NCBI GenBank assembly: GCA_000934665.2 | Contig: KZ538914.1 | Location: 1 to 40,691, forward strand | DNA length: 40,691 bases | DNA from: Catajapyx aquilonaris | Lineage: Eukaryota | Reading direction: 5' to 3' | In this document: piece by piece, positions 4,371 to 7,300 of the stretch | Layout: each line of letters opens with the position of its first letter | Position numbering within the stretch: position 1 is the stretch's first letter | The notes under the pieces: generated by a model | Database searches by the model: none | What the model was told of the DNA's origin: nothing | Seen by the model: only the letters and a program-made list of their open reading frames with translations | Program-made: the position numbers and the translations under genes

Positions 4371-7300
4371 GTGAGTACCACTCCAAGCTTTTTTTTTGGG
4401 GGGGGGGGGGTCAGGTGGAGGAAAAGATCGATTTTTGTACTCGCCTAGAAATGGAGATCAATGAGGACGAATACCGAAAACTCCTACTCATCTTCACCAA
4501 ATAGCATTCCTTCTTAAGTCATGCCTTTCATTCCTTTCGAGTCTGCCCAACGATCGTTTTGGCCTTTTTCTTATAACTCTAGCCCTCCTTAGACGATTGA
4601 AAGTGACCTATAGGTCGTTGAGAGGACACTGGTTTGTTTTTGGACGCGGTATGCTAACACGACAAACCTTCTAGCTCCTGTAGTTCAGTGGTAGAACACA
4701 TGCTCGATTGCGAGTGTGGAACCTGGGTTCGATTCCCAGCAGGAGCGACGCCGGTTTGCTGGTAAAATTAGGGTGTGTCGCAGGAAATTTTTGAACTTGA
4801 GTCGCATATTTCTAGATTGTTCTCTCCACATAGTTGTTGCGGTTACTAAAACTTGGGAGAAATCTAGGTGCATCTTGACTATGAGTGACAACTGTGGTAA
4901 CGTAGAGTAAAGCCCGTCTTACACGACAATGTTCCATGAGAATGTTGGTTGTACAGTCCTTAAAGGGACACTCCATTCAAAAAACAAGTTTGTCTCTAAA
5001 AATCGGGCAAAAAATCCTGAATCCGAAGGTGCAATCCGTTTTTCGCTACGCGGAACGGTAATCCCAGGGCGAGGTGTCAAAGTGTGTCGTCTGCTAATGA
5101 GCGGCGCCGCCACGCGGGAAACAGGGGAACTGGAGGGCTGCACCGCTCTGGGATGGGCCTAAGCGCGCGGGCAGGCGGGAGCAGCCCTCCAGTTCCCAAG
5201 GTCCCGAGGGCGTCGCTGGCGGACGGCCAGCTTCTAGCGCACTATTTGAATTTCCCCACTTTGACCCGTCGCCCTGGGATTACCGTTCCGCGTAGCGAAA
5301 AACGGATTGCACCTTCGGATTCAAGATTTTTTGCCCGATTTTTAGAGCCAAACTTGTTTTTTGAGTGGAGTGTCCCTTTAAGAGAACGTCGTGTAAACGG
5401 GCCTCCTGCAACAGCCAATAGATGGCATTAGCAGTTCGCGCCATCTGTTAGGAGTGACCTCCGGGTACTGTCTATCCCCGCCGGTTTTGTCCTATTCCGT
5501 CCACAGGGACAACGAGAGTGGAAATTTGCTGGACAACCTCCTGTCCCGTATGGAGCAGTATGCTAACAATCTGGAGAGTCTGGTGGAGGAGAGAACGGCC
5601 GACTACTTGGAAGAAAAGCGCAAGTGTGAGGAGCTGCTCTACCAGTTGCTGCCCAAATCTGTAGCCAGTCAGCTGATCGCGGGTCAGCCAGTCATCGCTG
5701 AGACCTTTGACCAGGTCACTATCTACTTCTCGGATATTGTGGGCTTCACGTCTTTATCGGCAGCTAGCACACCTATGCAGGTGGTCAACCTTCTCAACGA
5801 CCTCTACACCTGCTTTGACTCCATCATTGAAAATTTTGACGTCTACAAGGTGAGTCAGTTTGTGAAACAATTGTAAATACAATGCTAATGATTGACATCA
5901 CTGCAGGAATTTTTAGGGAAGGGGTTTTTTCATTACGCTCTGGTATGCATGCAAAACAAGTACCGCGGTATGGGTTTTGCAATAGCTATGTAAGGGATGA
6001 TCAAATTCCTGACGACATGCAACAGGGGAACATTTTTCATTATGCCACTGCACTGGGTGGAAGCTCCGGGATAAGAGAACTGATCAATTAACGCACAAAA
6101 TGCCTCCTAATAAGCTTACCGGGTTTAATTATTGGCTAGCTTGCACTAGGACAATGACACACGCGCATGATACTGCACGTATCGGCACAAAAAGTCCAAC
6201 ATGCATATTCACTGATCGTGTGTACTTGCACATATGTTAGCCCATCCCTCACATTCTATTCTTAAATTTGATGATTTTTATACTTTTTCGAGAGAAAAAG
6301 TCTTATAGAACTGCTCTGTCTGTCTGTCTGTCCGTGGACAGGTATCAGACAGACAGCCGTGCTATAAGACTTTTTTTCGATTTTCGGGTTCTGGGTTCAC
6401 TCTATCCGCCCCCTCCCCAGATCACCCTTTCCCCCCTCCCTCCTCCTAACCCCTGATACCTGATACCTGTTTACAGACAGACGGACAGAGCCGTGCTATA
6501 AGACTTTTTGGGGGACAATAGCAGTAAACATGAAAAAGTCTACTCTAATCACGCTCACGTGATTTGCCAATCTTTTTTTTTTGCCGATTGGCTGATCCAA
6601 GAAATATCCACTTATCCTTTAGGTCTATCTCAGACTATCTCCGATATTTCTGCCTAAATTGAAGTTAGTTGACAGCAAAATAAAATCTACTGACACTTTG
6701 GAGGTAATAGTGAGAAACGGGCAGCTCAGAAACGCTAGGATTCATCATCTTCCTCCTAAATTTAAGCCTCTCCAACATTTTTTTCCTTCCTGAGGAAATC
6801 ATCTGCACCATTCCGTGAAACTCGTTTTCTTTAACCAGAATACGGATGAAATCCAAAATCGATATTTCCCCCCCCCCCNCGTCAACCCCCTTCAAATGTC
6901 AGTGAATCCTTCCATCCTGATATCACACAGTTCAATGGCCATGACAAGCTGTCAGACATCTAATACACAAAAATGCAGCTCCAATTCTCCCAACTCATAC
7001 GGATGAGTTGACTAGATCACCCTGTATAGTATTACGAACCGAGTGCAATCAGTCTGGCCAATGATCAGATCGGGACTGGTGACAGGGTACTTCAAATCTT
7101 CAACAAAAGTGCAAAGACTTGTTTTCCAGGTGGAGACAATAGGTGACGCATACATGGTGGTTTCGGGTCTCCCTGTACGCAATGGCCTATCTCATGCCAG
7201 AGAGATTTCCCGTATGGCCCTGGCCCTTCGCAACGCAGTCATGAAGTTCACGATTCGACACCGACCTAAGGACCAACTTAAACTACGCATAGGCTTGCAC

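What the first reader, a model, noticed from the sequence alone, without database searches (positions are those of the whole stretch)
4674..4747. Structurally intact tRNA mimic with no decoding loop, in a guanylyl cyclase intron
Seen: a 74-nt cloverleaf with a perfect acceptor stem (GCTCCTG/CAGGAGC), D stem (GTTC/GAAC), T stem (CTGGG/CCCAG, TTCGATT loop) and intact Pol III boxes. The anticodon arm is 20 nt instead of 17 and folds as an 8-bp stem (2 G-U) capped by a 4-nt loop ATTG, with no U33/anticodon geometry. Known: the D loop, T arm and 4-nt variable region resemble animal tRNA-Gly, whose acceptor is GCATTGG/CCAATGC-like, so several pairs differ on both strands and still pair. The SINE heads elsewhere in this window lack a closed acceptor stem, and I see no SINE tail or TSD here. 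Inference: selection on shape rather than on decoding, e.g. an RNase P/Z-processed tRNA mimic, a synthetase or ribosome decoy, or a TFIIIC anchor.
Basis: partly seen in the sequence, partly recalled or inferred. Interest (0 to 1): 0.8.

Follow-up and report, generated by a model that had tools for sequence, protein, structure and literature searches.

The report
Non-decoding tRNA look-alike in intron
A well-folded tRNA-shaped gene whose anticodon loop is closed into a hairpin sits in an animal guanylyl cyclase intron; it is most simply a disabled stray copy of a tRNA gene, and nothing yet shows it is a purpose-built mimic.

Summary
4674-4747 (+) scores 52.9 bits on Rfam tRNA (cut-off 29). It folds as a cloverleaf with 24 of 24 stem pairs intact. 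Its anticodon arm is 20 nt: an 8-bp stem and a 4-nt loop, which ARAGORN cannot decode.

It is not a SINE head. Its flanks are single copy, and none of the 16 related contigs per DNA run matches it beyond the tRNA body. It also lacks the body shared by the window's own SINE-like repeats.

It is not unique either: those 16 dispersed loci are 80-99% alike over the tRNA body. Removing 3 nt (4705-4707) in silico gives a canonical Ala(UGC)-type arm. The Ala identity pair G3:U70 is absent.

A second tRNA-like element, Gln-like, at 29812-29884 (-) has a similar loop-to-stem defect plus a stem mismatch.

Best reading (0.55): a disabled tRNA-gene paralogue that is probably still transcribed and end-processed but not charged. 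Selection on shape could not be tested: no genome, no relatives and no usable RNA data were available.

Interest is low to moderate.

The parts
4674..4747 (+). tRNA-shaped element (e1), 74 nt, full cloverleaf, no decodable anticodon loop
   Evidence: Rfam RF00005 52.9 bits, E 1e-08; ARAGORN tRNA-???; MFE cloverleaf -32 kcal/mol, z -3.46
4674..4680 (+). acceptor stem 5' strand GCTCCTG; pairs with 4740-4746 (CAGGAGC), 7 of 7 Watson-Crick; position 3:70 is U:A, not G:U
   Evidence: sequence; fold
4681..4697 (+). U8, A9 and the D arm (stem 4683-4686 / 4694-4697, loop AGTGGTA with the GG of positions 18-19); 4681-4691 matches the A-box consensus (recalled)
   Evidence: sequence; cmscan alignment
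4699..4718 (+). anticodon-arm equivalent, 20 nt instead of 17: 8-bp stem (6 Watson-Crick + 2 G-U) capped by loop ATTG (4707-4710)
   Evidence: fold; cmscan shows 9 nt where the model has 6
4705..4707 (+). candidate 3-nt insertion (CGA): removing it in silico gives the best-scoring canonical arm, read as Ala (anticodon TGC at 4709-4711)
   Evidence: ARAGORN deletion scan: intact 111.0; this deletion 120.5, the best of 24 three-nt deletions
4723..4739 (+). T arm (CTGGG / TTCGATT / CCCAG); 4726-4736 matches the B-box consensus (recalled)
   Evidence: sequence; cmscan alignment; fold
4788..4792 (+). first run of 4 or more T downstream (TTTTT), 41 nt after the discriminator; possible Pol III terminator
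   Evidence: script; sequence; function inferred
5507..5849 (+). host-gene exon (receptor-type guanylyl cyclase: end of HNOBA, start of the catalytic domain), same strand as the element, 760 nt downstream
   Evidence: Pfam PF00211 1.4e-18 and PF07701 4.4e-05; splice signals read

Best explanation
The element is a dispersed paralogue of a cytosolic tRNA gene that has lost the ability to decode: a tRNA pseudogene, or 'tRNA look-alike', of undetermined isotype. Its anticodon arm looks like an Ala(UGC)-type arm with three extra bases (CGA, 4705-4707) on the 5' side of the loop. Together with the bases at loop positions 37-38, these zip the former 7-nt loop into three extra base pairs and leave a 4-nt cap.

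Inferred consequences, none shown. The internal A and B boxes, the acceptor/T-arm helix and the D/T-loop elbow are all intact. RNA polymerase III can therefore probably still transcribe it, ending at the T5 run at 4788-4792. Alternatively the shape arises inside the sense-strand host intron. RNase P, RNase Z and the CCA-adding enzyme would probably trim and tail it. No synthetase is expected to charge it: there is no anticodon, no G3:U70 and no long variable arm. It would be a translationally inert by-product.

The perfect extra stem needs no selection. Three extra pairs arise by chance in about 2-5% of random 10-nt loops (my arithmetic). Template-switch mutations in hairpins are documented to turn loop sequence into perfect stem in one event (PMC8794818, passages read).
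For: 1. It is a true tRNA homologue with only the anticodon loop aberrant.
2. It is single copy with unique flanks. In each DNA run, one contig spans 4474-4947 with 0 differences at depth 17-27. The other 16 of 17 laid contigs match only within 4673-4743 and then run on unlike. The in-window self-BLAST finds no second copy.
3. The organism holds 16 dispersed relatives per run. Likeness classes of the 17 laid contigs, the locus itself included (>=99 / 95-99 / 90-95 / <90%), are 1/1/6/9. Each relative is at ordinary depth, 14.6-37. The element therefore belongs to an ordinary-sized tDNA family, not to a one-off design.
4. Of the 24 three-nt deletions tried, removal of 4705-4707 gives the best canonical tRNA: Ala(tgc), 120.5 against 111.0 intact.
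5. The only other tRNA hit in the window, at 29812-29884 (-), scores 50.3 bits. It is also broken in the anticodon arm (18 nt, 4-base 'anticodon') and shows plain decay: an unpaired position inside the stem, a D arm missing from the centroid structure, and z = -1.97. One 1-nt deletion restores a Gln or Lys reading. Two of two tRNA hits in 40 kb are defective, which suggests that defective tDNAs are common in this genome.
6. tRNA pseudogenes, including ones of undetermined isotype, are common in eukaryotic genomes, and their number rises faster than genome size (PMC2888827, passages read).
Against: All 24 stem pairs are intact, which means either a young copy or constraint.

The arm reads as Ala-type but the acceptor has U3:A70 instead of the Ala identity pair. 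The element is therefore not a simple Ala pseudogene, and its true parent is unknown.

Partial read-outs of relatives hint that some of them also differ from the canonical arm length. One contig, clipped at 4706 in X2 and X4, continues with letters that would give an 18-nt arm. Aligned lengths of 7 listed relatives differ from e1 by 0 to -5 nt, not uniformly by about -2 to -3. If the long arm is a family trait, a single insertion in this copy is the wrong history.

The T5 run is 41 nt downstream, further than I recall as usual for active animal tRNA genes.

The isotype was assigned only through ARAGORN after an artificial edit.
Confidence: 0.55

Rival explanations
1. A selected tRNA mimic. The element, possibly with some of its relatives, is kept for its L-shape and not for decoding. 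It would be cut out by RNase P/Z from its own Pol III transcript or from the host intron and act as a small RNA, a decoy or a processing signal, like mascRNA/menRNA or the Arabidopsis GUT15 intronic tRNA-like RNA.
For: 24 of 24 stem pairs and all elbow nucleotides are intact while the decoding loop is gone. The 'longer stem and compact loop' in place of the anticodon arm is the design described for mascRNA and menRNA (PMC11693755, passages read). The element is in sense orientation in a Pol II intron, as in GUT15 (PMC6152437, abstract and passages). The cloverleaf persists when 40-46 nt of flank on each side are folded with it. There are hints that some relatives have non-canonical arm lengths.
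Against: No covariation, conservation or expression evidence was available. The mascRNA model scores 25.3 bits against a cut-off of 42.5, E 0.54. A full D arm and linkers make the element a plain tRNA derivative. The neighbouring Gln-like element shows the same kind of lesion together with decay, as mutation alone would produce. The extra 3 pairs have a chance probability of about 2-5% (my arithmetic).
Confidence: 0.15
2. A copy of a tRNA-derived mobile or retroposed family (SINE head, head-only copy or tRNA retropseudogene). The A- and B-box regions stay similar because only promoter-competent masters spread, while the region between the boxes drifts.
For: About 16 dispersed relatives per run with unrelated flanks. 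Per-bin depth is highest over 4682-4697, where the A box lies, and falls through the 3' half (table 2). The window holds other tRNA-derived SINE-like repeats.
Against: No contig shares any sequence with e1 beyond 4673-4743 at 80% likeness or more. There is no encoded CCA, A-rich tail or target-site duplication. The element does not share the body of the window's SINE-like family. The acceptor stem is closed. Every relative sits at single-copy depth.
Confidence: 0.15
3. DNA-level role. The intact A and B boxes make the locus a TFIIIC / Pol III-bound site (insulator, or roadblock for Pol II in the cyclase gene), whatever the fate of the RNA. This is compatible with the best explanation.
For: A- and B-box-like sequences are intact (consensus recalled). 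The location is inside a Pol II gene.
Against: Nothing tested bears on protein binding. Any recent tRNA pseudogene would look the same.
Confidence: 0.07
4. A working decoder: a tRNA with a tiny intron or an expanded 10-nt anticodon loop (four-base or frameshift reader).
For: Removing 4705-4707 gives a canonical loop with anticodon TGC. ARAGORN reports a 4-base 'anticodon'.
Against: The 3 nt lie between positions 32 and 33, not at 37/38 where nuclear tRNA introns of animals lie (established knowledge, recalled). Three nt cannot form the pairing needed at the splice site. The loop is self-complementary and folds shut at 46% ensemble frequency. There is no G3:U70 for AlaRS.
Confidence: 0.03

Closest known systems
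tRNA pseudogenes / 'tRNA look-alikes' of undetermined isotype in eukaryotic nuclear genomes (PMC2888827 passages; PMC8450103 passages; PMC4189335 search listing and start of abstract only)
   Same: A dispersed single locus homologous to tRNA genes over the tRNA body only. It has relatives elsewhere in the genome, the internal promoter boxes are retained, and the anticodon cannot be assigned.
   Different: It is unusually clean: every stem pairs and the Rfam score is 52.9 bits. The tRNAscan-SE pseudogene rule (under 55 bits plus a low primary or secondary sub-score) could not be applied because that program is not available here. The parent family is not identified.
mascRNA / menRNA (Rfam RF01684), tRNA-like RNAs cut from MALAT1 and NEAT1 by RNase P/Z
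   Same: tRNA-shaped and non-aminoacylated. [quoted passage not shown] The acceptor/T-arm and elbow are kept for RNase P/Z.
   Different: The element fails the family model: 25.3 against 42.5 bits. It has a full-size D arm and normal linkers, which mascRNA lacks. No upstream lncRNA 3'-end module is known here. It has its own Pol III boxes.
GUT15 intron-encoded tRNA-like RNA of Arabidopsis (PMC6152437, abstract and passages)
   Same: [quoted passage not shown] The GUT15 RNA receives CCA.
   Different: The GUT15 element has a defective A box and is not transcribed by Pol III; here both boxes look intact. There is no sequence relation, the kingdoms differ, and no expression data exist here.
tRNA-derived SINE heads
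   Same: tRNA-related sequence with A and B boxes; such repeats occur in the same window.
   Different: There is no shared body, tail or target-site duplication. The flanks are unique. The acceptor stem is closed. The window's SINE-like copies do not reach E <= 10 on the tRNA model.
Template-switch mutations that create or extend perfect RNA hairpins (PMC8794818, passages; PMC5453318, listing only)
   Same: Offers a one-step, selection-free origin for a loop turned into a perfect stem. 'From loop to stem' and 'insertion in stem half' patterns are reported as enriched.
   Different: Not demonstrated for this locus, because the ancestral sequence is unknown.

Membership tests
tRNA (Rfam RF00005) | Covariance-model score at or above the gathering cut-off over the full model | tested here: met
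   52.9 bits against 29, model positions 1-71 of 71
Decoding cytosolic tRNA | 5-bp anticodon stem with a 7-nt loop carrying U33 and a 3-nt anticodon | tested here: not met
   20-nt arm, 8-bp stem, 4-nt loop; ARAGORN tRNA-???; 9-nt insert against 6 in the model
Decoding cytosolic tRNA | 7-bp acceptor, 4-bp D stem, 5-bp T stem, conserved U8, A14, G18G19, A21, T54-C56, A58 | tested here: met
   Read; fold. The list of conserved positions is recalled.
tRNA-Ala | G3:U70 identity pair in the acceptor stem (recalled; reviewed in PMC9976931, listing only) | tested here: not met
   Position 3:70 is T4676:A4744. The Ala reading exists only after in-silico removal of 4705-4707.
Intron-containing nuclear tRNA | Intron directly 3' of position 37 | tested here: not met
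   The only 3-nt removals that give top scores lie at 4704-4707, between positions 32 and 33.
tRNA-derived SINE | Many copies sharing a tRNA-unrelated body and tail downstream of the head; target-site duplications | tested here: not met
   0 of 16 related contigs per run match beyond 4673-4743 at 80% or more. No second copy of the flanks in the window. No shared body with the window's SINE-like repeats.
mascRNA-menRNA (RF01684) | Score at or above the gathering cut-off | tested here: not met
   25.3 bits against 42.5, E 0.54
mascRNA-like processing module | Released from a Pol II transcript by RNase P/Z; CCA added; stable small RNA | not testable with these tools
   No RNA run was available to lay on the locus.
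tRNA pseudogene (tRNAscan-SE heuristic) | Overall score under 55 bits with primary score under 10 or secondary score under 5 (PMC8450103) | not testable with these tools
   tRNAscan-SE and its eukaryotic and isotype models are not on hand. The Rfam general model gives 52.9 bits.

The most novel reading that the evidence does not exclude
The element is one member of a small, dispersed family of about 17 loci encoding tRNA-shaped RNAs. In this family the anticodon loop is deliberately replaced by a hairpin of variable tip, while the acceptor/T-arm and elbow are kept. The RNAs would be made by Pol III or released from host introns by RNase P/Z and CCA-tailed. That would be an invertebrate counterpart of mascRNA or GUT15-type tRNA mimics, acting as a small regulatory RNA, an enzyme decoy or an intron-processing signal.
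Probability: 0.12. Interest if true: 0.65.

Novelty: new member of a known kind. Interest (0 to 1): 0.3.

Why it matters
If it is what it most likely is, it matters mainly for annotation. A covariance model scores it as a good tRNA, yet it should be labelled non-decoding. It is also a clean example of how a small insertion can zip an anticodon loop into a stem.

If the arm proves to be conserved or covarying among the roughly 16 relatives or in related species, it would be a rare case outside vertebrates and plants of a tRNA-shaped RNA kept for its shape. That case would be directly testable by tRNA-seq and Pol III ChIP.

Tried and rejected
- **Own genome.** None is held, so copy number, parent family and covariation could not be computed directly.
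- **Earlier findings of this scan.** Nothing turned up for this genome or for either element. A word search returned only prokaryotic and phage tRNA pseudogene cases, which were not used.
- **Public runs.** No RNA holder was listed. Run X5 is of unknown kind. Its two contigs match only the tRNA body and have other flanks, so they say nothing about this locus.
- **Pattern scans for the tRNA body.**
  - Metagenome contigs gave 1 hit, an unrelated tRNA-His.
  - Genome contigs gave 0 and 0.
  - Viral contigs gave 0.
- **Paper search** for a 15-nt D-arm string: 0 papers.
- **Rejected reading 1.** Differences from the relatives seemed to cluster at 4706-4713. Every listed difference lies 31-36 letters from an end (from_end column), and for pieces of about 65-70 nt only the central positions lie that far from both ends. 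I therefore take the clustering to be a reporting filter.
- **Rejected reading 2.** Some relatives seemed to share flanks with one another. The loose-end consensus agreements of 0.54-0.64 for 3-4 contigs are about what unrelated sequences give (about 0.56 for three, my arithmetic). Only one pair of contigs, at 0.95, shares a flank.
- **Reconstructing relatives.** Matching depth values across the tables to rebuild single relatives left most differences unplaced and is inconclusive.
- **CpG observed/expected.** Element 0.73, surrounding intron 0.95, window 0.56. This is not informative on age or methylation.
- **Leader-trailer pairing around the element.** Present in the fold, but z = -1.6, not significant.
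- **Taxon.** Not pursued beyond 'animal-type genes'.
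Full report
**What is there.**
The stretch 4674-4747 on the + strand is a 74-nt tRNA homologue. Rfam's tRNA model matches it end to end: 52.9 bits against a cut-off of 29, E = 1e-08. The one irregularity is 9 nt where the model expects 6 in the anticodon loop. ARAGORN finds the same coordinates but cannot name an isotype, reporting 'tRNA-???' with a four-base anticodon.

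It has a 7-bp acceptor, a 4-bp D stem, a 5-bp T stem and an 8-bp stem capped by ATTG where the anticodon arm should be. The energy is -32 kcal/mol, with 46% of the ensemble and z = -3.46; 0 of 200 shuffles fold as well. All 24 stem pairs are standard, two of them G-U. By reading, the nucleotides that build the tRNA elbow are present: U8, A14, the GG of the D loop, and TTCGATT in the T loop.

**Context.**
The window carries animal-type split genes. Two exons on the + strand encode parts of a guanylyl cyclase. One holds the end of HNOBA and the start of the catalytic domain (E = 1.4e-18). The other holds the middle of the catalytic domain (E = 1.7e-15). Several exons of an STT3 oligosaccharyltransferase lie on the - strand.

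The cyclase exon nearest the element runs 5507-5849, with an AG acceptor and a GT donor. The element lies 760 nt upstream of it, on the sense strand. That exon encodes an internal part of the protein, so the element is very probably intronic. The upstream exon is outside the window.

The first run of four or more T after the element is TTTTT at 4788-4792, 41 nt downstream.

**Not a SINE head.**
- A BLAST of 4201-5500 against the window finds no second copy of the element or its flanks. The only repeat there is an inverted repeat at 4959-5382.
- The window's SINE-like repeats (about 24035, 36690 and 37455) share a body downstream of their B-box-like motif. The element lacks that body. None of them reaches E <= 10 on the tRNA model.
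- Three DNA runs were laid on 4474-4947 as contigs. All three come from one sample, which may be the source of the window, so they count as one observation. In each, one contig covers the whole stretch without a difference at depth 17-27. Sixteen further contigs match only within 4673-4743 and then continue with unlike sequence.

There is therefore no shared body, tail or flank at 80% likeness or more.

**Not unique either.**
With the locus itself included, the 17 laid contigs fall into likeness classes of 1 (>=99%, the locus), 1 (95-99%), 6 (90-95%) and 9 (<90%). The listed relatives sit at ordinary depth, 14.6-37. The genome thus holds a modest family of dispersed loci with the same tRNA body. 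In three of them per run the match begins at 4673, so it appears to cover the 5' acceptor strand.

I could not retrieve their sequences, and two tempting readings of the tables had to be dropped.
- The listed base differences all fall at 4706-4713. Every one lies 31-36 letters from an end, and for aligned pieces of about 65-70 nt only the central positions lie that far from both ends. I therefore read the clustering as a reporting filter.
- The apparent shared flanks among relatives rest on consensus agreements of 0.54-0.64 for three or four contigs. That is about the chance level (my arithmetic).

What remains is a hint. The aligned lengths of the seven listed relatives differ from the element by 0 to -5 nt, not by the uniform -2 to -3 expected of canonical tRNAs. 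One contig, clipped at 4706, continues with letters that would give an 18-nt arm. Whether the long arm is private to this copy or a family trait is open.

**What the arm looks like.**
I removed every run of 1, 2 or 3 bases across the arm in silico and asked ARAGORN to re-read the result: 72 variants for this element. The intact element scores 111.0. The best canonical tRNA comes from removing CGA at 4705-4707. It is read as Ala with anticodon TGC and scores 120.5; removing 4704-4706 gives 118.3, also Ala(TGC).

This shows the smallest edit that restores a normal arm, not the history. The extra bases lie between positions 32 and 33, not at the 37/38 site of nuclear tRNA introns (recalled), so a tiny intron is not a credible reading. 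The acceptor has U3:A70, not the G3:U70 pair that defines tRNA-Ala (recalled). The element is therefore not a simple Ala pseudogene, and its parent is unidentified.

That conclusion does not follow without the true parent.

**A second case in the same window.**
The only other tRNA hit, at 29812-29884 on the - strand, scores 50.3 bits. It lies in an STT3 intron, also in sense orientation. It too has a non-canonical arm: 18 nt and a four-base 'anticodon'. Removing one base restores a Gln or Lys reading at 116.2 against 107.8 intact.

This second element shows decay. There is an unpaired position inside the stem, the D arm is lost from the centroid structure, and z = -1.97 with 8 of 200 shuffles as stable. 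Two of two tRNA hits in 40 kb are defective in the same region. That is easier to explain by a genome rich in dying tDNA copies, perhaps with a mutational bias toward closing hairpins, than by two independent designed mimics.

**Mechanism favoured.**
The element is a disabled tRNA-gene paralogue. The homology, the loss of a decodable loop, the unique flanks and the existence of relatives are shown.

The rest is inferred. With both promoter boxes, the acceptor/T helix and the elbow intact, it is probably still transcribed by Pol III or folded within the host intron. It would then be trimmed by RNase P and Z and CCA-tailed. It would not be charged, since it has no anticodon, no G3:U70 and no long variable arm.

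The three extra pairs need no selection. Their chance probability in a random 10-nt loop is about 2-5% (my arithmetic). Template switching during replication is documented to convert loop sequence into perfect stem in one step (PMC8794818, passages read). tRNA pseudogenes, including those of undetermined isotype, are common in eukaryotes and increase faster than genome size (PMC2888827, passages read).

I put this reading at 0.55.

**Rivals.**
[quoted passage not shown] An intron-encoded, CCA-tailed tRNA-like RNA also exists in Arabidopsis GUT15 (PMC6152437, abstract and passages). Against it, the element fails the mascRNA model (25.3 against 42.5 bits), keeps a full D arm, and has no conservation or expression evidence.
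- *Mobile or retroposed tRNA-derived copy (0.15).* This fits the dispersed relatives, but not the unique flanks, the missing tail or the closed acceptor.
- *DNA-level TFIIIC / Pol III site (0.07).* Compatible with everything and untested.
- *Working decoder (0.03).* Contradicted by the fold and by the position of the extra bases.

**Verdict.**
The structure is real and cleanly described. The claim of selection on shape is untested, and its stated basis is not valid. The ordinary explanation is the more likely one. I file the element as a new member of a known kind: non-decoding tDNA, a tRNA look-alike. The decisive analysis is simple once the assembly is at hand: collect the roughly 16 relatives and the orthologous introns, and ask whether the long arm and the acceptor covary or decay.

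Noticed in passing
window 29812-29884 (-): A second tRNA-like element (Rfam tRNA 50.3 bits), Gln-like by recall and by the deletion scan, with an 18-nt anticodon arm and an unpaired position in the stem. It lies in an STT3 intron in sense orientation, with a TTTTT run 16 nt downstream.
   Followed up: partly
window 4959-5382: A 443-nt self-alignment in inverted orientation at 78% identity: a long imperfect palindrome (MITE-like or hairpin) between the tRNA-like element and the cyclase exon.
   Followed up: no
window about 24035-24175, 36690-36830, 37455-37595 (+); about 28900-29040 (-): Copies of a SINE-like repeat with a B-box-like GGGTTCGAT motif. The three + strand copies share a downstream body. 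None reaches E <= 10 on the tRNA model.
   Followed up: partly
window 35334-35500: Hits on both strands, below cut-off, to miRNA hairpin models: mir-2985 at 39.5-40.5 bits and mir-581 at 41.2 bits, E about 4e-05 to 7e-05. Probably palindromic repeat copies next to the assembly gap.
   Followed up: no
window 18083-18166 (-): A hit to the mir-999 precursor model at 38.3 bits (cut-off 58), E 3.6e-05. It may be a real miRNA hairpin or a chance hairpin.
   Followed up: no
window about 35040-35170: A run of 132 N (assembly gap), seen as X-runs in all six frames.
   Followed up: no
window 20185-22329 and 29959-30255 (-): Exons of an STT3-type oligosaccharyltransferase catalytic subunit (PF02516 up to 2.8e-33; PF21436), tail to tail with the guanylyl cyclase gene.
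   Followed up: partly
run X5, contig records 25 and 26: In a run of unknown kind with the same species label, a 1172-nt contig at depth 2298 and a 1798-nt contig at depth 113 each hold a relative of the tRNA body with other flanks. If that run is RNA, one relative lies in a very abundant transcript.
   Followed up: no
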